Source: a virus | Lineage: Duplodnaviria; Caudoviricetes | IMG/VR virus record: IMGVR_UViG_3300050510_000109 | Span: 1-64,000 of that record | Length of the DNA: 64,000 nt | Strand: one strand, 5' to 3' | Part shown: positions 4,176-24,363 of the stretch, piece by piece | Layout: each line of letters opens with the position of its first letter | Position numbering within the stretch: the stretch's first letter is position 1 | Notes under the pieces: generated by a model | Told to the model about the DNA's origin: nothing | What the model saw: the letters and a program-made list of their open reading frames with translations, nothing else | Databases searched by the model: none | Program-made: the position numbers and the translations under genes

Positions 4176-5416
4176 AGTCTGCTCTCAGTAAACATAGATT
4201 CTAGGGTATACTTGTAATCCTCCCCACGGTTTTGTCCATCACACGGAACCCGATACATACAAGAGCTGCAACTGAATCGGGAAGGTTGTGGGTAAACTCG
4301 TGGATTGCCGAGGATATCCTTGGCCTCGTTAATTAGATCGTTCCAGAAGTTTTGAATTTGTATATCAGTCTTGTATATAACGTGGCGCTGGTAGAACTTC
4401 GGTGCCATCTTACCTTGCAAGAATTCCAGGTATTCGTCGTAGCATCCCATGTTATAACCGCGAACGTCTTCGGCCATAATGGTGTTAATGAAAGTTTCGT
4501 ATTCCATGGGAGCATTTCTGTCTGTACTGAAAGCTCTTCCTTTATACTCTCGTTGTAAGCGCTTGGGCTTCTCCGGTACTGCCTTGCGCTGTTCGTGGTA
4601 AATGAAGCCGTCCACGCGCCTGCCAAGCTTGCGAATCGCTACCGGGTAGCCTGCAACCTGGTCGTCCAGTTCTAGGAAGGCAGCTTCGTCGAAATCATCT
4701 AGAATTCTGGCGGTTGTTTTCCAATCCACACAAAGTATCCTGTGGTCGGAGTCTTCGAAAATGGCATCGATTCGTCCACCAAAGGTGACAGGTAAACCAG
4801 CCCATAGTTTCCAGTAGTTGGATTCTGTTGCGCAGAACTGCCGGGCTTTGTCGGGTCCTCGTCCCTTGTTGATGAAGTACTGGTAAGTTTCCTCTTGCCA
4901 TTTGTCATGGTGAGCAATCCCATCGGAAGAAGTTTTCCATCTCACCTTGCAAGCTTCACAACCACAATTGAAGCCCAAGCTTACCTCGAAGGGAATCTCT
5001 ACAGCTAGTGGAGTCAAACCCTGATCAATCTTGGGGCTTATCTTTGTAGTATAATACTTCACCATGTCTATGCCTAGTGACAGGCTGTGTTTGTATCGCT
5101 CAATGACATCATCTTCAGGTCTACCATTAAGCTCAATGTATCTGCTGTATTGGTCCTGAACCGTGTCCTTGAAAGCATCAATTGCGTTGCGCGACTTTGT
5201 CCAGTTATCTTCTGCCCAAGTGTCCGGGTTATAGTAGGTCTCCATGGCAACGTGATAAGCCGTACCAAATTCCAGAGGTGCGGGCGTTACCGTGGGGTGA
5301 TAATTTTGCCGATAAGCCCAGTCCCAACGGCGACGACAGCCACGAAAAGCTCTGCGCTCAGAGGTGTGAATTGAATGGATCAGTCCTTTATCGATGTACT
5401 CCTGAATTTCCATCAT
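4172..5416 (-). CDS. Cas4/RecB-like PD-(D/E)XK exonuclease
   Basis: HTSERRAFRGCRR, GRIDAIF, VDWKT, QVAGY and C-terminal CSSCMYRVPC Fe-S cysteines. Confidence 0.75.
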   Translation of the reverse strand: MMEIQEYIDKGLIHSIHTSERRAFRGCRRRWDWAYRQNYHPTVTPAPLEFGTAYHVAMETYYNPDTWAEDNWTKSRNAIDAFKDTVQDQYSRYIELNGRPEDDVIERYKHSLSLGIDMVKYYTTKISPKIDQGLTPLAVEIPFEVSLGFNCGCEACKVRWKTSSDGIAHHDKWQEETYQYFINKGRGPDKARQFCATESNYWKLWAGLPVTFGGRIDAIFEDSDHRILCVDWKTTARILDDFDEAAFLELDDQVAGYPVAIRKLGRRVDGFIYHEQRKAVPEKPKRLQREYKGRAFSTDRNAPMEYETFINTIMAEDVRGYNMGCYDEYLEFLQGKMAPKFYQRHVIYKTDIQIQNFWNDLINEAKDILGNPRVYPQPSRFSCSSCMYRVPCDGQNRGEDYKYTLESMFTESRL

Positions 5417-5579
5417 CCCTCTTTGTTTGTTTCTTGTATGCTCTACGTGCAGCTCTGTTGCCGTTGGGATCTGGTGCTTGATCTAGGGCTTCATTTTTCA
5501 GAAGCTTACGCCAGTTCGTTGTGTTAAGCAGCTTTGCTCTGGGTGCTGGGTTCACCTGTCGAATCCTCCGGAAGGACAT
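5388..5579 (-). CDS. Small basic hypothetical protein
   Basis: ORF track 5388-5609; trimmed to internal ATG (MSFRRIRQ). Confidence 0.3.
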   Translation of the reverse strand: MSFRRIRQVNPAPRAKLLNTTNWRKLLKNEALDQAPDPNGNRAARRAYKKQTKRDDGNSGVHR

Positions 5580-5814
5580 ATTGAGTTTTGGGAGTTTCGT
5601 TCCAAGCAATGTGCTCTTGCTTGAAGTTCCTGGCTATCCTTGACAGCTCTTGCCAAAGATTGTGCTTGAGGAAGTTCTCAGAGTTAGGTAACTCAATACA
5701 CCAGTGACAATTCATCGTGTGCGAGGTTGGTTGAGAGTGAACCATGCTGGCAAAGGTAGCTATTGCATGAGTCCGAACTACTCGATCAACTGCTTTTATG
5801 TACTCTGCCCACAA
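5524..5814 (-). CDS. Hypothetical protein
   Basis: ORF on the coding strand; start uncertain. Confidence 0.35.
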   Translation of the reverse strand: MWAEYIKAVDRVVRTHAIATFASMVHSQPTSHTMNCHWCIELPNSENFLKHNLWQELSRIARNFKQEHIAWNETPKTQYVLPEDSTGEPSTQSKAA

Positions 5815-5861
5815 AGGTTGTGAGAGCTGGTCGTGTGAATTGTCTATGCTGATCCAAACTA

Positions 5862-6071
5862 TTATAGAAATTTGACTCTCTCCTTAGTTCCATCTTCGTA
5901 TTGGAAGAATAGAGTTGCACCTTCATTTTGAGCTTCTATAAAGTACGCATAGGCTTTGAGAGATTTGGCGACTACATCAGTCTTATTAATTCCTTCGCTC
6001 TCAGCTACTGTACTCAAGGCTATGGCAGCGCTCTTGGTAAGGTTTACTGTGATTCGCTCGCCGTTTTCCAT
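5862..6071 (-). CDS. Ribbon-helix-helix (CopG-like) DNA-binding protein
   Basis: ERITVNLT beta strand followed by two helices (INKTDVVAKSLKAY). Confidence 0.6.
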   Translation of the reverse strand: MENGERITVNLTKSAAIALSTVAESEGINKTDVVAKSLKAYAYFIEAQNEGATLFFQYEDGTKERVKFL

Positions 6072-6206
6072 CTATCACGACCTCGTTGACACTCAGTGCA
6101 GTATATGACGTAATTGTAAGGATCTCTTGCTACTAGTTGATTCTCATATTCCGTAAGAATCTTTATCACTCGACCACAGTCTTGACATTCTAGAATTTTT
6201 GTGAAT

Positions 6207-6419
6207 TCATTCATCGACGTCAACCCAGTGCCACTTCTTTAATGCCGTGAGTGGATACGACCCTAAGTGCTTTCTTGTTGGGTACGAGTTGTAGTTATTA
6301 TCTTCTATGTATTCAAGTTGGTCATAGACCCTGAGTACGCCTTCTTTGACTTCAGTTCTGCGCGCACCTTCTACAACTTCATCCGTCCCATCTATATACC
6401 ATATTTTTAATTTCCTCAT
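6207..6419 (-). CDS. Hypothetical protein
   Basis: ORF immediately downstream of tRNA-Gln. Confidence 0.5.
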   Translation of the reverse strand: MRKLKIWYIDGTDEVVEGARRTEVKEGVLRVYDQLEYIEDNNYNSYPTRKHLGSYPLTALKKWHWVDVDE

Positions 6420-16094: not shown

Positions 16095-17711
16095 TTAGAT
16101 CTTTCCCTTACTAAACTCAGCAATGAGCTTAGGCAGGTTTGCGTCAGCTCCAACAACATCCAACATGCCCGAGTCGTTCGGGTCGGCAATGGTGAAGTTG
16201 CTCGCAGTTACACCAACCACCACAAGACGAGATGGGATTCCCATTGCCTTGCGGTATTTCTGAAGGGCAACGTGCGGGTGGACCTGACCAGACCACGTTT
16301 CGTTATCGGTGATGACGACGAACGTGTCGATTTCTATGCCTCGACTGTGCGCCCAAGTCATTGGCAACGAGCAGTCTGTAGAACCAAAGTTCTGGTCCTG
16401 TACTTTGCTCATTACCGACATGAGATCCATGTTTGCATGGATTCCCAGATCCTTGAACGTGTGGGCAAAGCCCATGATGTGATGGTAAGGCTCAGTCTTG
16501 GCGATAGCCGTAGCCATAACACCAGAGACCTGAGCTGCCGTCAAATCAAGACCCATGCCAATTGCGCCGGACATGGAACCCGAAACGTCCAACGCCAGCA
16601 GAGTGCGCTTGTTGGTTGGCTCAATGTGCTTGAACGCCAAATGAACCCCGGCATCAAGTGCACTGAGAATTTGTGGTGAGGAGACCCAATCCTTGGCGTT
16701 TCTGGCCCAAGGATTGTTGCGGTCTCGCTGTCCTTCCGTGTGAACAACCAAAGCGTTGAGGTAATTGAGAGGGTGAAGGCGCGTGCGCGCAATCATCTCC
16801 TCGTTCGTCAAGGCATTGGCGTAATCCGTGGCGAACACCAGGGAGTCAAAGGCTTTGAGCCTTGCCAACCGGGTGATGTTTCGCACCAGAGCCTGACCCT
16901 TAAGCTGTCCCGTGTAGAAAAGCTTTTGCCAAACTTCTGGGTTCTTGTGGAACTTGGTCGGCAAAGCCTCCCAAGGCAGTTTGGTGCGCTCCAGGATTTG
17001 AAGAACATCATGGACATTATCGGACTTTTGAACTTCCTCAAATGCTTGGATGACTTCTGGAAGCTGACCAATGTCTCCGTCGTACTTACCAAGAATCCAC
17101 TTGGCCACGTCGTCATAAAGATCCGTGTAGAACTTCGGACGAGACTGACGTAGTGAATCTCGGTGAGTCCAACCTTCACGTTGGCGGTACTTCACTGCCT
17201 GATAAGCAATGTCCTCCGGCGTCTTGTCCTGGTACCAAGAGGCAATTGCCTTGTTGCGCGAGCTTCCCAAGCCTGATCCAGGAGCGAGCGCCTTTAGGAA
17301 GGACTCGAACTGGAAAAGGTGAGTTGCCGTACGAACAATGCGGTTCACTTGCGAACGCGCGTAAACCTTGGCTTCCTCGTTTCCTACAGTCATAACGAAA
17401 GCCAGAACGAAAATGGCTGCATCGTTACGGTAAGAACGACCTTCGTCTGAGATTTGTGCAGCCAAATCGACAACAGCCTTTGGCTGAGTTGCCGTCAAGC
17501 TACGTAGGTTGTCCAGATTTTGCTTGGTCAAGTCCTTCTGGCCGATGTAGTACGTCCCACCCTCGGAACCAAGGATAAGGAATCGTGCCAGCCGATCCAT
17601 GGAAGAGACCTGGAACGAAAAACCTCCGGCAGAGTTAGCGATTTGCAATTGGCTCTCTGGCTCATTCTGTGGAATGTCTCTCGTCGCATGCATTCGTAGG
17701 TAGTTGCTCAC
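16095..17711 (-). CDS. rsr: Ro60 / TROVE-domain RNA-binding protein (TROVE + vWA)
   Basis: NSAGGF, RLARFLILGSEGGTYY, KYRQREGWTHRD, LPWE, LHP, LALDVSGSM, TDCSLPM, VITDNETW, MLDVVG. Confidence 0.93.
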   Translation of the reverse strand: MSNYLRMHATRDIPQNEPESQLQIANSAGGFSFQVSSMDRLARFLILGSEGGTYYIGQKDLTKQNLDNLRSLTATQPKAVVDLAAQISDEGRSYRNDAAIFVLAFVMTVGNEEAKVYARSQVNRIVRTATHLFQFESFLKALAPGSGLGSSRNKAIASWYQDKTPEDIAYQAVKYRQREGWTHRDSLRQSRPKFYTDLYDDVAKWILGKYDGDIGQLPEVIQAFEEVQKSDNVHDVLQILERTKLPWEALPTKFHKNPEVWQKLFYTGQLKGQALVRNITRLARLKAFDSLVFATDYANALTNEEMIARTRLHPLNYLNALVVHTEGQRDRNNPWARNAKDWVSSPQILSALDAGVHLAFKHIEPTNKRTLLALDVSGSMSGAIGMGLDLTAAQVSGVMATAIAKTEPYHHIMGFAHTFKDLGIHANMDLMSVMSKVQDQNFGSTDCSLPMTWAHSRGIEIDTFVVITDNETWSGQVHPHVALQKYRKAMGIPSRLVVVGVTASNFTIADPNDSGMLDVVGADANLPKLIAEFSKGKI

Positions 17712-17722
17712 TTTTTCCTCTT

Positions 17723-17743
17723 TCAGTCACTTTTCAGTAACAA
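17723..17743 (-). promoter_or_regulatory. Putative Ro-binding hairpin abutting the Ro60 SD sequence
   Basis: Minus strand UUGUUAC-UGAAAA-GUGACUGA reproduces the bulged helix of the Y-like RNAs, 2 nt 5' of the GAGG SD. Confidence 0.55.
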
Positions 17744-17748
17744 GGATG

Positions 17749-19685: not shown

Positions 19686-19826
19686 GATGCCGAACAAGTT
19701 GGCTACTATCGAAAGTTTTTGTGCTATCCGTTACACCACTGGCCCATGAGCGGGCCAGCCAGGAGTCGAACCTGGACCTTCTAATTAGCAGTTAGATGAT
19801 AATCGATAATAATTCAGTCCGACATC
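19686..19826 (-). ncRNA. yrlA: Y RNA 1, YrlA type
   Basis: GAUGUCG-GACUGA...CUUGUU-CGGCAUC stem; internal T arm CCAGGTTCGACTCCTGG, closed acceptor CTGGCCC/GGGCCAG, D arm. Confidence 0.85.
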
Positions 19827-19827
19827 G

Positions 19828-19904
19828 TGGGATTAGCAGGATTCGAACCTGCACTATGGACTTGGCATGTCCACGCCAGCGTCTACCAATTGCGCCACAA
19901 TCCC
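19828..19904 (-). tRNA. Atypical tRNA (possibly Gly-GCC; anticodon arm ambiguous)
   Basis: GGGATTG/TAATCCC acceptor, Leu-like D arm, canonical T arm; TGGAC-ATGCCAA-GTCCA competes with TGGCG/TGCCA. Confidence 0.5.
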
Positions 19905-19918
19905 ATTTGTATTGCACG

Positions 19919-20018
19919 TAGGAACGACAAGAATCGAACTTGTACCTTCTGGCTTAAGGGGCCAGTGCTCTAAATCCTCGGTTTCGGATATCACTCCACC
20001 TTGTTAAGCTACGTTCCC
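19919..20018 (-). tRNA. tRNA-Lys (CUU) with a 35-nt expanded D-loop
   Basis: GGGAACG/CGTTCCT acceptor, CTGGC-CCCTTAA-GCCAG anticodon arm, ACAAG-TTCGATT-CTTGT T arm. Confidence 0.7.
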
Positions 20019-20155
20019 ATGTTTTTGTGTACCGTATTGGGCCACGTACGGTACCAGACGTGGATACCATCCCCCGGAAGGGGCATCGCCCGTTTTGGTT
20101 TCCCTCATAGAAATCCGCCCAACGGCGAAGCAAGACAAACCCCAAGAGAGAACCG

Positions 20156-20228
20156 CTGGCCCAACAGGACTCGAACCTGTAACCCGTTGATTAACAATCA
20201 ACTGCGCTGCCAATTGCGCCATGAGCCA
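20156..20228 (-). tRNA. tRNA-Asn (GUU)
   Basis: TGGCTCA/TGGGCCA acceptor, GTTGA-TTGTTAA-TCAAC anticodon arm. Confidence 0.9.
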
Positions 20229-20234
20229 TTAATA

Positions 20235-20284
20235 GGGGATCAGCGTTCCCTTTTACGTTGTGGCTAGCCGTTACGCTGATCCCC
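20235..20284. other. 12-bp inverted repeat (terminator or RNA-processing stem)
   Basis: GGGGATCAGCGT/ACGCTGATCCCC. Confidence 0.45.
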
Positions 20285-20307
20285 GATCCTTCCGCGACCG
20301 CAGAAGT

Positions 20308-20694
20308 TTAACCTACGGTATAAGAACCATAGAAATCTATAAACCTTAGACCTTCATGATTCTCACAATCAGCCAGGTCATCTTCAGCCCAGTGATCGTA
20401 AAAGTCATTTTCTTGCCAGTAGTAAAGGTCTGTTTTCCATTGCTTGATTAAGCTCTGACGCTCGTGGCGCCAGTTCATTCTTTCACGACCATCTTCAAAG
20501 TAGAAAGCATATTTCTGACTACAGCACCAGCATTTGTGCTTAGCAAATAATGGCTTCCAAGTCCATTCGTAGAGTTCGTAAAGTCCAGTTTTCATATCGA
20601 ACGCTCTGCGAATGTGTCCAACCATGCGAAACCTACGGTTCAATGGGTCTTTCTCTTGAACCCACCATGGTCGCGTTTTGTCTGTATGAGACAT
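20308..20694 (-). CDS. Hypothetical protein (MSHTDKTRPWW...)
   Basis: AGGAGG SD; sole ORF between tRNA/ncRNA genes. Confidence 0.6.
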   Translation of the reverse strand: MSHTDKTRPWWVQEKDPLNRRFRMVGHIRRAFDMKTGLYELYEWTWKPLFAKHKCWCCSQKYAFYFEDGRERMNWRHERQSLIKQWKTDLYYWQENDFYDHWAEDDLADCENHEGLRFIDFYGSYTVG

Positions 20695-20851
20695 GATAAC
20701 CTCCTGTGCCGGTTAGGTACCGGCTAGACTAGGTTTCTCATGTCTTTCTCCTTTCTACTTTAAGTTTGGCGGGCAGGACTACGACCTACTAAAGCAATTT
20801 ATCCGGAACATCCTAGGTTCGGTCTCGGGTGCTACCCAACCTGCCTCGCTG

Positions 20852-20923
20852 TACCCCCACTAGGATTCGAACCTAGAACCTGATAGTTAAGAGCTACCAG
20901 CTCTACCCTTGAGCTATGGAGGC
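20852..20923 (-). tRNA. tRNA-Lys (CUU)
   Basis: GCCTCCA/TGGGGGT acceptor, GGTAG-CTCTTAA-CTATC anticodon arm. Confidence 0.9.
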
Positions 20924-21173
20924 TTGACCCTAGTATGTAGTATTTTGAAGCTGACGAGTAACTACATACTAGGGGGATCGTACTGTACCACAGACTTCTG
21001 ACTTAGCATTGGAGAGGGTTACTTTATCTAGAATTTTTCGCCCCCCACGCTTTCTCCCGCACTCCGTTAACACTCGACGTTGGAGAGTATAGGGTTGAGC
21101 GTTAGTTATACTTTGGTCATTCCGTCCATCCTGGTCGAGACAATTCACGTCTATGACAAAGTAAAAACTACCG

Positions 21174-21247
21174 TCTGGATAGCAGGATTCGAACCTGCAA
21201 TCGCTAGCTCCCAAAGCTAGTGCCCTACCAAGTTAGGCCATATCCAG
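21174..21247 (-). tRNA. tRNA-Pro (UGG)
   Basis: CTGGATA/TATCCAG acceptor, CTAGC-TTTGGGA-GCTAG anticodon arm. Confidence 0.9.
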
Positions 21248-21251
21248 ATTA

Positions 21252-21334
21252 GATGCTGAACAAGTATTTGCATCGGAGGGATATCTTCATTCATTACAAG
21301 TGAATTGATAACCGATACAATTCAGTCCAGCATC
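21252..21334 (-). ncRNA. Y-like RNA 2 (no tRNA module)
   Basis: GAUGCUG-GACUGAA-UUGUAUCGGUUAUC...CCGAUGCAA-AUA-CUUGUU-CAGCAUC. Confidence 0.8.
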
Positions 21335-21337
21335 GGG

Positions 21338-21405
21338 GTACCTAACAAGTCGCAAATATCGGGTTATTTTGGCTGGAGGATAACCGATATTCTTCAGTCA
21401 GGCAC
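21338..21405 (-). ncRNA. Y-like RNA 3 (minimal, 68 nt)
   Basis: GUGCCU-GACUGAA-GAAUAUCGGUUAUC...CCGAUAUU...CUUGUU-AGGUAC. Confidence 0.8.
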
Positions 21406-21408
21406 TCG

Positions 21409-21480
21409 CCCGAACGACAGGAGTCGAACCTGCATCTTCCGGTTTTGGAGACCGGCGCTTTTCCATTAAGCTACGTTCGA
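21409..21480 (-). tRNA. tRNA-Trp (CCA)
   Basis: TCGAACG/CGTTCGG acceptor, CCGGT-CTCCAAA-ACCGG anticodon arm. Confidence 0.9.
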
Positions 21481-21483
21481 AGG

Positions 21484-21560
21484 CTCCGCAACCTCACATT
21501 TGTGGAAACAACAAACCAGGCGGAGGTAAAGTGACCTTTGGCGCTTGTGAGGTTGCGGAG
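21484..21560 (-). ncRNA. Long-stem structured RNA
   Basis: Perfect 15-bp CTCCGCAACCTCACA/TGTGAGGTTGCGGAG stem enclosing 47 nt, between tRNA-Trp and Y-like RNA 4. Confidence 0.45.
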
Positions 21561-21567
21561 GTTAAAC

Positions 21568-21675
21568 AGCCAAACAAGTTACGACAATTGCTAGATTAAA
21601 CATTAGCTGCGAGCCATGCTTCATCCACTAGTAATTAAACTTTTGCAGTGATAAGCGATCGTCTTCAGTCTGACT
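21568..21675 (-). ncRNA. Y-like RNA 4
   Basis: AGUCA-GACUGAA-GACGAUCGCUUAUC...CUUGUU-UGGCU; overlaps the stop codon of the upstream ORF. Confidence 0.7.
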
Positions 21676-22075
21676 TGCGCTTTGGTCTTTCTCGTTTAAT
21701 TCTGTCTTGCGGGTTGTTCATTGAATCAGTGATCAGTTTTTCTATGTGTTCTGGGAGCCTATCGGGTGGTCCTTGTGTGCGTTCAAGCTCAATTCGTCTT
21801 GCCTCTTCGGTTATTACCTTCATAGCACAAATCTTAGCCTTGTCCAAGGACATCATGCGCAGTGTATATTCTAGTGTCGTCTTGCATATCACTATCGCTT
21901 CCATTGCGCCTGCTGCTGGTCTGTACCAGACTAACTCAGTGCCTACTTCAGAGCTAAAAGCTGAACTTGCTTGAGTATCCATAAGCAGTCGTTGCTGTTG
22001 ATCTGCACTTCGCAATTCAACATCGATCGTTATTGATACAAACCAATTTTTTCTTATATCGTCCCACTTTGTCAA
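21665..22075 (-). CDS. Hypothetical protein embedded in the Y RNA array
   Basis: TTG start after AAGGAG SD; the longer ORF-track version runs through Y RNA 5. Confidence 0.55.
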   Translation of the reverse strand: MTKWDDIRKNWFVSITIDVELRSADQQQRLLMDTQASSAFSSEVGTELVWYRPAAGAMEAIVICKTTLEYTLRMMSLDKAKICAMKVITEEARRIELERTQGPPDRLPEHIEKLITDSMNNPQDRIKRERPKRKSD

Positions 22076-22092
22076 TCTTGCTCTCCTTTTGA

Positions 22093-22231
22093 TACTGCCG
22101 AACAAGTGTAAGCAATCGGTATTTTTGGCGCTCTCCCACTGAGCTACATCCCGAAAATCAGGATGACAGGACTCGAACCTGCGACCTCCCACTCCGAATG
22201 TGATAACCAATTAGCATTCAGTCCGGCAGTA
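22093..22231 (-). ncRNA. yrlA: Y RNA 5, YrlA type
   Basis: UACUGCCG-GACUGAA...GGUUAUC; T arm GCAGGTTCGAGTCCTGT, closed acceptor CATCCTG/CGGGATG, D arm TAGCTCAGTGGGAGAGC; CUUGUU-CGGCAGUA. Confidence 0.85.
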
Positions 22232-22238
22232 CGTATGG

Positions 22239-22316
22239 GTATTGAACAAGTGGCTAGATTCGGCCTGTGGTCGGCATCAAATAGTTGTCGATAACCAAAT
22301 CTATTCAGTCCAATAC
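22239..22316 (-). ncRNA. Y-like RNA 6
   Basis: GUAUUG-GACUGAA-UAGAUUUGGUUAUC...CCGAAUCUA...CUUGUU-CAAUAC. Confidence 0.8.
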
Positions 22317-22328
22317 TTGGAGCTTTTA

Positions 22329-22438
22329 GTGTTGAACAAGCTATCGTAATCGTCCATTGCCCTACCATTAGGCGATATCCGGCGTGCGGATAAAAAGATT
22401 CGAACTTTTAAGATAAACAATTACTATCAGTCCAACAC
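22329..22438 (-). ncRNA. yrlA: Y RNA 7, YrlA type
   Basis: GUGUUG-GACUGA...UUUAUC; T arm AAAAGTTCGAATCTTTT, closed acceptor TATCCG/CGGATA, D arm TCGCCTAATGGTAGGGC; CUUGUU-CAACAC. Confidence 0.8.
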
Positions 22439-22447
22439 CAAGTTGGG

Positions 22448-22549
22448 TGTACCTAACAAGGTGGAGAATTCGGTCTTACTTAATAGACGCTCAATATATC
22501 GAGCTTCCTTCTATCCATCCTGATAACCAAATTCAATCAGTCAGGCACA
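22448..22549 (-). ncRNA. Y-like RNA 8
   Basis: UGUGCCU-GACUGAU-UGAAUUUGGUUAUC...ACCGAAUUC...CUUGUU-AGGUACA. Confidence 0.8.
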
Positions 22550-22557
22550 ACGTTTGG

Positions 22558-22679
22558 ATGTCTAACAAGTTATTAAGATTTCGGGTGGCCTACCTCGTGG
22601 TGGTTAGCTTCGAGGCTAGATTTCGCATGTCTAACGGCCGAGTCTGGTGCGGTAACCGAATTCTAATTCAGTCAGACAT
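22558..22679 (-). ncRNA. Y-like RNA 9
   Basis: AUGUCU-GACUGAA-UUAGAAUUCGGUUACC...CCGAAAUCU...CUUGUU-AGACAU. Confidence 0.75.
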
Positions 22680-22684
22680 TACCA

Positions 22685-22759
22685 GGTGATTGTTGGGGGT
22701 CGAACCCAAACCTCTAGATTCACAGTCTAGTGTGCACGAGCCGGTACACTACAACCACC
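22685..22759 (-). tRNA. tRNA-His (GUG)
   Basis: G-1:C73 pair, GTGGTTG/CAATCAC acceptor, CTAGA-CTGTGAA-TCTAG anticodon arm. Confidence 0.88.
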
Positions 22760-22762
22760 ATG

Positions 22763-22839
22763 AGTTGCAAACAAGTTGACAGGTATCGGTATAGTTCCAT
22801 ACCAATTATAGATAACCGAAACCAATTCAGTCTGCAACT
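22763..22839 (-). ncRNA. Y-like RNA 10
   Basis: AGUUGCA-GACUGAA-UUGGUUUCGGUUAUC...ACCGAUACC...CUUGUU-UGCAACU. Confidence 0.8.
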
Positions 22840-22977
22840 GAGAACCATTTAGCTTCCGCTGTTTAGTTCTCAAGATACATTATTCATTTGCTGCATGGGT
22901 AACCCTTTATGGCTAGGCCCTGGAGAACCACCACGTTCCCACCCATGTATATCAAAGGTAAGATTTCTACCTTCAAG

Positions 22978-23070
22978 AGGGGGTGAGAGGAATCGAACCT
23001 CTCTAGCATACCAAGTTGGGACCGAGATACCGTTTGCGCGCCGCGCGAATATCCTAGACCAACTACCCCC
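22978..23070 (-). ncRNA. D-armless tRNA-like RNA E
   Basis: GGGGGT/ACCCCC acceptor, AGAGG-TTCGATT-CCTCT T arm, central GTTGG/CCAAC stem. Confidence 0.5.
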
Positions 23071-23189
23071 AAAAAACGTCCTAGTAACTGGACGTTCCTA
23101 CGGTATTTCTCCGTGTCGTTTTGTGCTTGAGGTTTTGTACGGCATTCCCTACGTTTTTGTCCTCAAGCCGACCGAAATAACACTGTATT

Positions 23190-23327
23190 AAGCGTACATC
23201 CGGCTTCGAACCGAACACCCAATCGGACAGATAGGGGCTTTACGTGGTGAAGCTTTGTTTCGTGGTCCAGGTTGCCTGTCGCTCATGCTGGGACGTATTT
23301 AGGATCTCCCTAAATCACCATACGCTT
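23190..23327 (-). ncRNA. Enlarged tRNA-like RNA F (138 nt)
   Basis: AAGCGTAT/GTACGCTT acceptor-like stem, TTCGG-TTCGAAG-CCGGA T arm, ATTTAGG/CCTAAAT hairpin. Confidence 0.4.
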
Positions 23328-23336
23328 CACCACTAG

Positions 23337-23407
23337 TGGCAGGCGTCCGATTCGAACGGCGTCTCCGGGTTATGAGCCCGGTATGGGACCTCTCCACCAC
23401 GCCTGCG
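23337..23407 (-). tRNA. tRNA-Met (CAU), initiator-like anticodon stem
   Basis: CCGGG-CTCATAA-CCCGG with three G-C pairs; GCAGGCG/CGCCTGC acceptor; weak T stem. Confidence 0.7.
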
Positions 23408-23557
23408 ACGATTATTTAATTGGCGCTAGCCTAACCCCCACTAGCATATGGACCCTTTGGTGACCACTTAGACGTTTGGGGGGACTATTCTCAATGGGGA
23501 TCTCGGGGAGGGCCATCAACAACAGACCTTACGTCTTAGTCCAATTCCAACCTTTTG

Positions 23558-23971
23558 CTAATTCAGGTGTGCGTTGAGTAGCTTCTCAATGTCCGCATCG
23601 GTGAGCTTAGCTCCGCATTGGCAAGGGGTCAAGTCTTTCGTGCTGACTCCATGCTTGAGTGCATACTGACCAAATTCGAACATGTTTGCGAGAAGCTGTC
23701 CAAGTGTTTGCTCATCAAGGGCAACAGCAAAGCCACCCTCAATTTCATGGAGTCGTTGCATAAGCCCCATGAAGATCTGAGCACATGCTTTCAGCAATGC
23801 AGGAGGGAAATGTTCTACCTCCGAACCATTGACCTGTTCATTGATGAACTGTTGCCAGACTTCGTAAATCTTGTCAACATCTCTATCGAACAGATCTCGC
23901 TGCTCATCAGAGAAATGCATTGGTGTCCTTTTTCGTGCTTCTGGGCGACCCCTCCGGGCCACCTCCAACAT
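23558..23971 (-). CDS. Hypothetical protein
   Basis: ORF on the coding strand; start probably at internal MHFSDEQ. Confidence 0.5.
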   Translation of the reverse strand: MLEVARRGRPEARKRTPMHFSDEQRDLFDRDVDKIYEVWQQFINEQVNGSEVEHFPPALLKACAQIFMGLMQRLHEIEGGFAVALDEQTLGQLLANMFEFGQYALKHGVSTKDLTPCQCGAKLTDADIEKLLNAHLN

Positions 23972-24048
23972 TACATGCTCTTGACGGAGCTGTCAAGTGT
24001 ACTCTGACCTGCTATGATGCATAAATGATCTTGGTCGGCCTCGACCGG

Positions 24049-24363
24049 CTAAGATTGTTTTTCTCCTGCCCACAACAAATGTCCCTCATTTATCATTACA
24101 ACTGGTTCGGGACCATTTCGTCTGGCTTGGATTATTTCAACTATTACATTGGCCAATTCGGTTTCGTTGCTGCACGAACAAATCGCTTCCATTTCCCTTG
24201 GCCAAATATCATGAATGACATATACAGTATCGTATAGTTCATCCATACTAACGGAAACGTCTATCTTTTTTCGATTACGAAATCGTCCAGAGCAGAACTT
24301 TATCTCACCTACTCCGGGTTTGTGTAGTACCTTATGTTTGTGGGTTATTTTGTGTAGCATCAT
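24049..24363 (-). CDS. Hypothetical protein
   Basis: GAGGAG SD. Confidence 0.55.
   Translation of the reverse strand: MMLHKITHKHKVLHKPGVGEIKFCSGRFRNRKKIDVSVSMDELYDTVYVIHDIWPREMEAICSCSNETELANVIVEIIQARRNGPEPVVMINEGHLLWAGEKQS

What the first reader, a model, noticed from the sequence alone, without database searches (positions are those of the whole stretch)
21252..22839. Seven Y-like RNAs carry non-tRNA, mutually unrelated apical domains
Seen in sequence: RNAs 2, 3, 4, 6, 8, 9 and 10 lack the T-acceptor-D module. Their apices range from about 15 nt (RNA 3) to about 60 nt (RNAs 4 and 9) and share no obvious sequence. RNAs 3 and 8 have identical termini (GUGCCUGACUGA...CUUGUUAGGUAC), suggesting duplication followed by apex swapping. 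Inference: this is a constant scaffold with a variable cassette. The apices might tether different proteins (in Deinococcus, Y RNA tethers Rsr to PNPase) or act as antisense guides or decoys.
Basis: partly seen in the sequence, partly recalled or inferred. Interest (0 to 1): 0.8.

Follow-up and report, generated by a model that had tools for sequence, protein, structure and literature searches.

The report
Phage Y RNA array, diverse tips
A soil phage that carries its own Ro60 protein also encodes ten Y RNAs on one shared stem, and seven of them have tips that are not tRNA-like; five of those tips are kept in related phages, which suggests each gives the Ro60 particle a different partner.

Summary
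The window is a 72-kb soil phage with a Ro60/Rsr gene (16095-17711, minus strand). Upstream, among tRNAs, lie exactly ten Y-like RNAs.

**Scaffold.** All ten share a covarying two-helix stem: 94% of cells paired, against 75% shuffled and about 40% slid. RNAs 2, 3, 4, 6, 8, 9 and 10 lack a T/acceptor/D module. They match no Rfam family and show no significant similarity to each other or to the phage's tRNAs.

**New here.**
- Two related phages (Rsr 73-75% identical) carry homologous arrays.
- Five of the seven apices are kept there, against a background of 48% identity at third codon positions. RNA8 has a 34-nt block that is 100% identical. RNA4 has a 13-nt block. RNA9 keeps a three-way fold with compensatory stems. 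RNA10 and RNA3 keep their loops.
- RNA2 and RNA6 are lineage-specific.
- Apices show no antisense match to the phage's own genome beyond chance.

**Reading.** This is an expanded, phage-borne Y RNA family with a constant Rsr-binding scaffold and selected, diversified effector modules. Binding, expression and partners are untested. It is a new variant of a known kind.

Other first-stage notes cover this same genome. None were found on other DNA.

The parts
21252..21334 (-). RNA2. Y-like RNA, 83 nt. The apex is an anticodon-arm-like hairpin at 21289-21305 (5 bp, 7-nt loop CUUGUAA). The apex is lineage-specific.
   Evidence: CM 64.6 bits. Fold z -4.6. Hairpin shown. Positional orthologues A6 and B5 have different apices.
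21338..21405 (-). RNA3. Y-like RNA, 68 nt. P2 is extended by GGUUAU/AUAACC and closes a 12-nt C/A-rich loop. The loop core at 21368-21375 is kept in orthologue A5.
   Evidence: CM 63 bits. Fold z -4.3. Alignment with A5.
21568..21675 (-). RNA4. Y-like RNA, 108 nt. Two-hairpin apex. A 13-nt block at 21604-21616 is identical in orthologue B4.
   Evidence: CM 30 bits. Apex local similarity to B4 z 10.5. Block shown.
22239..22316 (-). RNA6. Y-like RNA, 78 nt. Short, weakly structured apex. No orthologue found.
   Evidence: CM 56 bits. Fold z -4.1. No apex match in relatives.
22448..22549 (-). RNA8. Y-like RNA, 102 nt. The apex is a stem, a purine-rich internal loop and a hairpin.
   Evidence: CM 43 bits. 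Fold z -3.7.
22481..22514 (-). Invariant 34-nt core of the RNA8 apex. It is 100% identical in the related phage G001 (RNA A4), while the flanking scaffold differs.
   Evidence: An exact scan of IMG/VR finds it only in G001.
22558..22679 (-). RNA9. Y-like RNA, 122 nt. The apex is a closing stem with two hairpins (22617-22633 and 22592-22616). A3 and B2 have the same topology with different stem sequences.
   Evidence: CM 38.5 bits. Independent folds. One compensatory pair in hairpin 2 by the tool; further stem differences read from the folds. Apex similarity to A3 z 10.2.
22763..22839 (-). RNA10. Y-like RNA, 77 nt. Apex hairpin right after UUAUC, with an AUUGG loop (22802-22807) kept in A1 and B1 while the stem varies.
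   Evidence: CM 71 bits. Alignments and folds.
19686..19826 (-). RNA1. tRNA-like Y RNA, for context. It uses the same scaffold.
   Evidence: CM 50 bits. Sub-threshold tRNA match inside it. Orthologues A7 and B6 are 84% identical in the apex.
22092..22232 (-). RNA5. tRNA-like Y RNA, for context.
   Evidence: Rfam YrlA 34 bits, below threshold. CM 46 bits.
22326..22441 (-). RNA7. tRNA-like Y RNA, for context.
   Evidence: Rfam YrlA 34.3 bits, below threshold. CM 41 bits.
16095..17711 (-). Phage Ro60/Rsr gene, the presumed protein partner of the scaffold.
   Evidence: Pfam TROVE 3.7e-29 and vWA_Ro60 7.4e-61. PHROG 850.
21665..22078 (-). 137-aa ORF of no known family, between RNA5 and RNA4. The block RNA5-ORF-RNA4 is shared with phage G002.
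   Evidence: tblastn 32% identity, E 4e-9, at the same position in G002. No Pfam, PHROG or Atlas match.

Best explanation
The seven elements are genuine members of a phage-encoded, expanded Y RNA family.

**Layout.** They lie with three tRNA-like Y RNAs and several tRNAs upstream of the phage Ro60/Rsr gene, all on the same strand. No terminator-like site lies within the RNA2-RNA10 stretch and the spacers are 3-10 nt. They are therefore probably cut from one long transcript; this is inferred.

**Scaffold.** Each RNA has a constant scaffold:
- a terminal helix containing an invariant bulged-U segment (GAC-U-GA paired with UUGUU);
- an internal loop;
- a second helix ending in GGUUAUC.

The covariation is shown. 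Binding to Rsr is inferred, by analogy with the bulged helix of known Y RNAs.

**Apical modules.** Beyond the scaffold each RNA carries a different module:
- RNA2: an anticodon-arm-like hairpin
- RNA10: a D-loop-like hairpin
- RNA3: a C/A-rich loop
- RNA8: a stem, internal loop and hairpin
- RNA4: a two-hairpin domain
- RNA9: a three-way domain
- RNA6: a short orphan

Five of these modules are kept in related phages more strongly than neutral sites, so they are under selection (shown).

**Most likely role (inferred).** Each module docks a different protein or RNA partner. One phage Rsr would then be assembled into several distinct particles during infection. This is the modular tether-and-gate logic known from Deinococcus Yrn1-PNPase and from the loop domains of animal Y RNAs.
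For: **The RNAs are real and Rsr-linked**
- Ten model hits in the genome, all on the Rsr strand.
- Scaffold covariation on 26 RNAs: 94.1% paired against 75.2% shuffled (0 of 500 shuffles reach it) and 27-42% when slid; 15 of 21 pairs change on both sides.
- Conserved G-U pairs make the fold specific to the minus-strand transcript.
- In 54 further Rsr loci, 31 of 31 model hits lie on the Rsr strand, many within about 500 nt upstream of Rsr.
- The same helix, permuted into a hairpin, sits at the Rsr ribosome-binding site. It recurs in G002 with a compensatory change.

**The apices are selected**
- RNA8 34/34 nt, RNA4 13/13 nt, the RNA9 topology, and the RNA10 and RNA3 loops are all conserved.
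- For comparison, Rsr third codon positions are 48% identical and tRNAs are 71-95% identical.

**Published model**
- Variable loop domains that specialise Y RNAs: PMC4726728.
- At least two Y RNAs per bacterium, one of them not tRNA-like: PMC4201824.
- A phage Ro60 that binds two phage Yrls and host PNPase: PMC12135203.
Against: - No expression or binding data exist. The phage is known only from soil and rhizosphere metagenomes.
- Only two or three relatives are available, so apex conservation rests on pairs or triplets.
- For RNA8 there is no covariation, because the sequences are identical.
- The long apices of RNA4 and RNA9 fold no better than shuffles on their own (z 0.0 and -0.3).
- RNA2 and RNA6 apices are not conserved.
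- The invariant RNA8 block is a near-palindrome and could in principle be a DNA site.
- The scaffold motif differs from the published bacterial GNCGAA motif.
Confidence: 0.6

Rival explanations
1. Only the scaffold matters. The seven RNAs serve as extra Rsr-binding copies, for dosage, gating or titration of Rsr. The apices are tolerated filler that merely closes the hairpin.
For: - Apices of RNA2 and RNA6 are not conserved, and array content differs between phages: 10, 7, 6 and at least 4 members.
- Long apices fold no better than shuffles.
Against: - The 34-nt identical block in RNA8 is more conserved than its own scaffold.
- Loops are conserved over varying stems in RNA10, and the fold is kept with compensatory stem changes in RNA9.
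Confidence: 0.14
2. The apices are antisense guides or decoys for host RNAs. They would bring Rsr, and a recruited nuclease, to specific host transcripts, or soak them up.
For: - Loops are conserved and single-stranded in RNA3 and RNA10.
- The host could not be examined, so this remains open.
Against: - There is no complementarity to the phage's own genome beyond shuffles.
- The conserved parts of RNA8 and RNA9 are mostly internally paired.
Confidence: 0.1
3. The apices mimic single tRNA arms: an anticodon arm in RNA2 and a D-loop in RNA10. They would act as decoys or sensors for tRNA-directed host enzymes such as anticodon nucleases or modification and repair enzymes. This would complement the phage's tRNA set.
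For: - RNA2 has a 5-bp stem with a 7-nt loop of anticodon-loop form. The identical loop occurs in a Y RNA of a distant Rsr phage (locus L018).
- Hairpins with 7-nt loops directly after UUAUC occur in 15 of 58 RNAs, against 3.9 in shuffles.
- The RNA10 loop equals a D-loop octamer of a neighbouring tRNA.
- The array is embedded among tRNAs.
Against: - Similarity to the phage's tRNAs is not significant (35 of 200 shuffles reach it).
- RNA2's apex is not kept in the closest relatives.
- No RtcB gene was found in the phage by a whole-genome search, and no Pfam RNA-repair family among the 20 ORFs scanned.
Confidence: 0.1
4. The elements are unrelated to Rsr. They would be processing or insulator hairpins of the tRNA operon, or a repeat family with inverted ends.
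For: They sit between tRNAs with very short spacers.
Against: - Across 54 loci they track the Rsr gene and its strand.
- The helix mirrors the known Ro-binding bulged helix and recurs at the Rsr start.
- G-U pairs show selection at the RNA level.
Confidence: 0.04

Closest known systems
Bacterial non-tRNA-like Y RNAs: Salmonella and M. smegmatis YrlB, Deinococcus Yrn2 (PMC4201824)
   Same: - Encoded beside Rsr on the same strand, together with a tRNA-like Y RNA.
- The termini pair into a long stem.
- There is no full tRNA-like domain.
- RNA3, with its small C-rich loop, resembles the described 'long hairpin with small pyrimidine-rich loop'.
   Different: - Seven such RNAs rather than one.
- Most have elaborate apices of 20-60 nt, not a small loop.
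- The scaffold motif is GACUGA, not GNCGAA.
- They are phage-borne and interleaved with tRNAs.
YrlA (Rfam RF02553) and Deinococcus Yrn1
   Same: - The same locus logic and the same two-module design.
- RNAs 1, 5 and 7 of this array are of this type.
   Different: - The seven lack the T, acceptor and D arms.
- They give no YrlA match even at E<=10.
Thermus phage phiLo Yrl1 and Yrl2 with phage Ro60 (PMC12135203)
   Same: - A phage-encoded Ro60 with phage-encoded Y-like RNAs just upstream.
- In phiLo these were shown to bind the phage Ro60 and host PNPase.
   Different: - Two RNAs with a CGAA motif, against ten with GACUGA.
- No diversity of apical modules was described there.
Animal Y RNAs (hY1, 3, 4, 5) and nematode stem-bulge RNAs (PMC4726728)
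   Same: - A bulged lower helix of the same geometry: pairs, then one bulged pyrimidine, then G-U and A-U.
- A UUAUC motif at the start of the loop domain.
- A paralogue family whose variable loop domains bind different proteins.
   Different: - The bulge is U, not C.
- No Rfam Y_RNA match.
- Probably cut from a long transcript (inferred), with no U-tail or La site.

Membership tests
Y RNA (Ro60-associated noncoding RNA, functional class) | Encoded close to a Ro60/Rsr gene, on the same strand. | tested here: met
   Rsr is at 16095-17711 (-). The RNAs lie 2-5 kb upstream on the same strand. The same holds for 31 of 31 hits in other Rsr loci.
Y RNA (Ro60-associated noncoding RNA, functional class) | The 5' and 3' ends pair into a stem that holds a conserved bulged helix, the Ro-binding site. 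| tested here: met
   12-pair helix P1, 96% paired, with 8 pairs changed on both sides. The C-G, bulged U, G-U and A-U are invariant.
Y RNA (Ro60-associated noncoding RNA, functional class) | Physically bound and stabilised by Ro60/Rsr. | not testable with these tools
   Needs immunoprecipitation or a gel shift.
Y RNA (Ro60-associated noncoding RNA, functional class) | A second, variable module distal to the Ro-binding stem. | tested here: met
   Apices of 11-63 nt, unrelated in sequence between paralogues.
YrlA (Rfam RF02553) | A tRNA-like domain (T arm, D arm, acceptor-like stem), scoring at or above 69 bits. | tested here: not met
   No match for the seven at E<=10. RNA5 and RNA7 reach only 34 bits.
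YrlA (Rfam RF02553) | A GNCGAAN0-1G motif near the 5' end (PMC4201824). | tested here: not met
   All ten read GACUGA at that place. More distant Rsr-phage Y RNAs found with the same model do read GGGYCGAA.
YrlB/Yrn2-type hairpin Y RNA | [quoted passage not shown] | tested here: inconclusive
   RNA3 fits loosely, with a 12-nt C/A-rich loop. The other six have larger or structured apices. No curated model exists to score against.
Animal Y RNA / sbRNA | A match to the curated Rfam models. | tested here: not met
   No Y_RNA or sbRNA match at E<=10 in 20200-24200.
Animal Y RNA / sbRNA | A UUAUC motif at the start of the loop domain (PMC4726728). | tested here: met
   UUA and the final C are invariant and the U before it nearly so in the ten-RNA alignment (RNA9 reads UUACC). 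GGUUAUC is invariant among the 11 short RNAs from four phages. It also occurs in the distant Streptomyces-phage-type group. Shared ancestry is not shown.

The most novel reading that the evidence does not exclude
The array is an adaptor library. Each conserved apical module programs the single phage Ro60 ring towards a different host target, for example tRNA-directed defence nucleases, PNPase or other RNA-decay enzymes, or particular host RNAs. The phage would then run a multi-specificity RNP system for host takeover or counter-defence, with modules gained, lost and recombined between phages through the shared scaffold.
Probability: 0.25. Interest if true: 0.85.

Novelty: new variant of a known kind. 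Interest (0 to 1): 0.62.

Why it matters
Bacterial and phage Y RNAs have mostly been found through their tRNA-like domain. The non-tRNA-like partners 'eluded bioinformatic discovery' (PMC4201824).

This work gives three things:
- A scaffold model that finds those partners. It shows a phage with ten Y RNAs where one to a few per species were known.
- Evidence that the variable tips are individually under selection. This is the prediction of the 'Y RNA as adaptor' model, which has been hard to test.
- A possible route to experiment. Cultured Streptomyces phages such as Karp carry a related Rsr (about 50% identical), and its motif recurs in unannotated gaps between their tRNAs. A related uncultured contig carries a five-member Y-like array. 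Rsr pull-downs could therefore be attempted in a laboratory system.

Tried and rejected
**Searches that gave only chance or no signal**
- A duplex-energy scan for scaffolds was not discriminating.
- Counting 8-mers to find motifs in relatives was uninformative.
- A 14-base pattern scan of IMG/VR gave only single chance hits.
- A 20-base pattern scan of 596 Gb of genomes gave 68 single hits in unrelated taxa. My own estimate of chance is about 100, so it gives no clue to the host.
- The nucleotide search of GenBank phages matched only tRNA-Trp.
- The promoter and terminator scan was at chance level.

**Relatives and models**
- The Rsr protein search of IMG/VR missed the two closest relatives. 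They were found only through the RNA pattern.
- A quick descriptor for the GGGUCGGAU-type Y RNAs of the Streptomyces-phage group mis-set their 3' ends. For that group I rely on reading the sequence.
- The covariance model with default filters missed A7, and the looser genome search missed RNA1 and RNA5.

**Expression and population data**
- No RNA holder is listed among public runs.
- Contigs of a near-identical strain were laid on the region, but the difference list was cut. Three differences could be placed in Y RNAs: one wobble-preserving change in P2 of RNA4, one change in RNA5, and a 1-nt insertion in RNA10. This is too few for a population test.

**Proteins**
- There is no RtcB in the phage.
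- The 137-aa ORF has no Pfam, PHROG or Atlas look-alike.

**Ideas dropped**
- A T-loop reading of the RNA9 motif was dropped. The orthologue does not keep it, and a different hairpin is supported by a compensatory change.
- A promoter inside the RNA8 block was considered and dropped, because the hexamer spacing does not fit.
Full report
**What is there**

The window is the first 64 kb of a 72,451-bp IMG/VR virus record rated complete. The same sequence is held by soil and rhizosphere metagenomes.

On the minus strand it encodes a 538-aa Ro60/Rsr orthologue at 16095-17711. Pfam gives TROVE 3.7e-29 and vWA_Ro60 7.4e-61, and it matches PHROG 850. Thirteen tRNAs lie on the same strand.

The closest named relatives of this Rsr are 'Ro-like RNA binding proteins' of Streptomyces phages such as Karp and Daubenski, at 45-50% identity. 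Mycobacteriophages follow at about 36%. An actinobacterial host is therefore likely but not shown.

**The observation**

A scan for the two invariant hexamers plus flanking complementarity finds ten elements, all on the minus strand:
- RNA1: 19686-19826
- RNA2: 21252-21334
- RNA3: 21338-21405
- RNA4: 21568-21675
- RNA5: 22092-22232
- RNA6: 22239-22316
- RNA7: 22326-22441
- RNA8: 22448-22549
- RNA9: 22558-22679
- RNA10: 22763-22839

Neighbours are separated by 3-10 nt or by a tRNA.

I built a covariance model from the eleven shortest members in four phages (alignment A2, model R1). It scores all ten at 30-71 bits (E 1e-6 to 1e-20), and nothing else in the window or the rest of the genome.

RNA5 and RNA7 give sub-threshold YrlA matches (34 bits against a cut-off of 69). 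RNA1 contains a sub-threshold tRNA match. The other seven give no Rfam match at all at E<=10.

The seven apices show no significant local similarity to each other (no pair at z>=5) or to the phage's tRNAs. RNA3 and RNA8 have identical termini.

**The scaffold is a real RNA structure**

I counted pairs on 26 RNAs aligned to the model: the window's ten, six from G001, six from G002, two from G003 and two from Streptomyces-phage-like contigs.
- The two helices are paired in 94.1% of cells. Shuffled partners give 75.2% (0 of 500 shuffles reach the observed value), and slid partners give 27-42%.
- 15 of 21 pairs change on both sides, in 112 cells.
- The segment C-G, bulged U, G-U, A-U is invariant or nearly so, and the flanking G-U occurs in 23 of 26.
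- These G-U pairs would be C-A mismatches on the other strand, so selection acts on the minus-strand RNA.

Read directly from the sequence, the helix has the geometry of the animal Ro-binding helix: four pairs, one bulged pyrimidine, then G-U and A-U. The details of the animal site are from my memory of the Xenopus work and are a lead, not a test.

The heptamer GGUUAUC ends the 5' strand of the second helix. It contains the UUAUC motif described for the loop domain of animal Y RNAs and nematode sbRNAs (PMC4726728).

**Link to Rsr**

In 54 other loci fetched through Rsr homologues, all 31 model hits at E<=0.01 lie on the Rsr strand, many within about 500 nt upstream of the gene. Those more distant RNAs carry the published GNCGAA-type motif.

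The window's own Rsr leader (17723-17744) rebuilds the same helix as a hairpin ending just before the Shine-Dalgarno sequence. G002 has it too, with an A-U to G-C compensatory change. This suggests that the helix is what Rsr recognises. It was first raised by another first-stage note (e1-5931644).

**Relatives and the test of neutrality**

A 20-base pattern taken from the scaffold found two phages that the protein-pattern search had missed:
- G001: 75 kb, Rsr 75% identical.
- G002: 52 kb, Rsr 73% identical.

It also found G003 (Rsr 43%). A metagenome contig, L185 (Rsr 65%), came from the protein search.

G001 has seven Y-like RNAs (A1-A7), G002 has six (B1-B6) and L185 has at least four. Synteny is kept: RNA10, tRNA-His, RNA9 and so on to tRNA-Pro. 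Content, however, is mosaic:
- RNA8 and RNA3 types occur in the window and G001.
- The block RNA5, 137-aa ORF, RNA4 occurs in the window and G002.

As yardsticks, the Rsr genes are 71% identical in DNA and 48% at third codon positions. Shared tRNAs are 71-95% identical.

| RNA | Orthologue(s) | What is kept | Calls |
|---|---|---|---|
| RNA8 | A4 | 34-nt block (22481-22514) 100% identical; the scaffold on either side is 82% and 71% | 38, 53 (z 25), 75 |
| RNA4 | B4 | identical 13-nt hairpin (21604-21616); apex 70% overall | 53 (z 10.5), 75 |
| RNA9 | A3, also B2 | separate folds give the same apex topology: a 4-bp closing stem, a hairpin with an 8-9-nt A/G-rich loop, and a 6-bp hairpin with a 13-14-nt loop in RNA9 and A3 (4 nt in B2). 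One compensatory pair in hairpin 2 by the tool; differing stem sequences read from the folds | 53, 66, 68 |
| RNA10 | A1, B1 | AUUGG loop kept, stem varies | 38, 68 |
| RNA3 | A5 | 8-nt loop core kept | 38, 75 |
| RNA2 | A6, B5 (positional) | apex only 41-50% identical | 75 |
| RNA6 | none found | not applicable | 37, 52 |

Five of seven apices therefore fail the 'neutral' refutation test. Two are lineage-specific.

**Refinements to 'non-tRNA, mutually unrelated'**

RNA2's apex is a 5-bp stem with a 7-nt loop of anticodon-loop form. The identical loop is found in a Y RNA next to an Rsr that is only 36% identical (L018).

Hairpins with 7-nt loops starting within 2 nt of UUAUC occur in 15 of 58 Y-like RNAs, against 3.9 in shuffles. 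This agrees with note e1-5931656. In the window they occur in RNAs 2, 6 and 10, and also in tRNA-like RNAs 1 and 5, so the two classes share their first apical element.

RNA10's loop equals a D-loop octamer of a neighbouring tRNA, but that match is not significant (35 of 200 shuffles).

**RNA3 and RNA8**

Only P1 is identical between them. P2 differs. Their orthologues A5 and A4 also share one P1, and that P1 differs from the window's at the same two positions.

The simplest reading is an old duplication whose termini have been kept alike by gene conversion. The conserved scaffold could also mediate module exchange. This is inference from two genomes.

**What the apices do**

- Antisense action on the phage's own transcripts is not supported. 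The longest perfect complementarity is 10-13 nt, matched or beaten by 12 to 196 of 200 shuffles depending on the RNA.
- Host targets could not be examined.
- No RtcB was found by a whole-genome search, and none of the 20 ORFs scanned against Pfam matched an RNA-repair family.
- The full RNAs fold better than shuffles (z -3.7 to -4.6 for five of the seven). The isolated long apices of RNA4 and RNA9 do not. Their structure rests on comparison alone.

The best-supported mechanism is the published modular one. The scaffold holds Rsr and the apex recruits a partner, as Yrn1 recruits PNPase and as animal loop domains bind different proteins (PMC4201824, PMC4726728, PMC12135203). Here this would be multiplied to ten adaptors in one phage. 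Binding, expression, processing and partners are all inferred.

**Novelty**

The papers I could search describe one to a few Y RNAs per species, 22 phages with YrlA-like RNAs, and two Yrls in phage phiLo. I found no description of a ten-member array or of conserved non-tRNA modules.

The two main reviews (PMC6047535, PMC10870794) were not available to me, so prior mention cannot be excluded.

I rate it a new variant of a known kind, interest 0.62.

Noticed in passing
window 17723-17744 (-): The Rsr leader carries the two strands of the Y RNA helix in reversed order. They form the same bulged helix as a hairpin ending just before the Shine-Dalgarno sequence and the GTG start. G002 has it too, with a compensatory change. 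This suggests Rsr represses its own translation.
   Followed up: partly
window 19918-20020 (-): A tRNA-Lys(CUU) has a D-loop insert of about 30 nt (19980-20006). The insert holds a 13-nt perfect complement to the 3' strand of RNA8 and a 12-of-13 complement to the P2/GGUUAUC region of RNA10. It is either an inverted piece of Y scaffold inside a tRNA or an anti-Y RNA.
   Followed up: partly
window 21483-21561 (-): An 80-nt hairpin with a perfect 15-bp terminal stem lies between tRNA-Trp and RNA4. It has no Ro-type motif. A near-identical strain differs at 21482 and 21549.
   Followed up: no
window 20925-20990: A perfect 17-bp hairpin lies in a noncoding stretch beside tRNA-Lys. The stretches 20700-20850, 21000-21170 and 22840-23340 also lack convincing ORFs and may hold further RNAs. 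There is a weak tmRNA-like match at 22935-23002.
   Followed up: no
window 21665-22078 (-): A 137-aa ORF of no known family lies inside the Y RNA array. It is inherited together with RNA5 and RNA4 in G002 (32% identity). It is a candidate partner protein.
   Followed up: partly
L003 4540-5865; L333 (Streptomyces phage Karp) about 5085-6210: Contig L003 (Rsr 50% identical to the window's) carries five Y-like RNAs with a GGGUCGGAU...AUAUCC helix and the same GUUAUC motif. Some are tRNA-like and some are not. The GGUCGGA motif also recurs in unannotated gaps between tRNAs of Streptomyces phage Karp.
   Followed up: partly
window 19827-19904 (-): ARAGORN cannot name the anticodon of a tRNA lying directly against RNA1. 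Rfam scores it at 46 bits.
   Followed up: no
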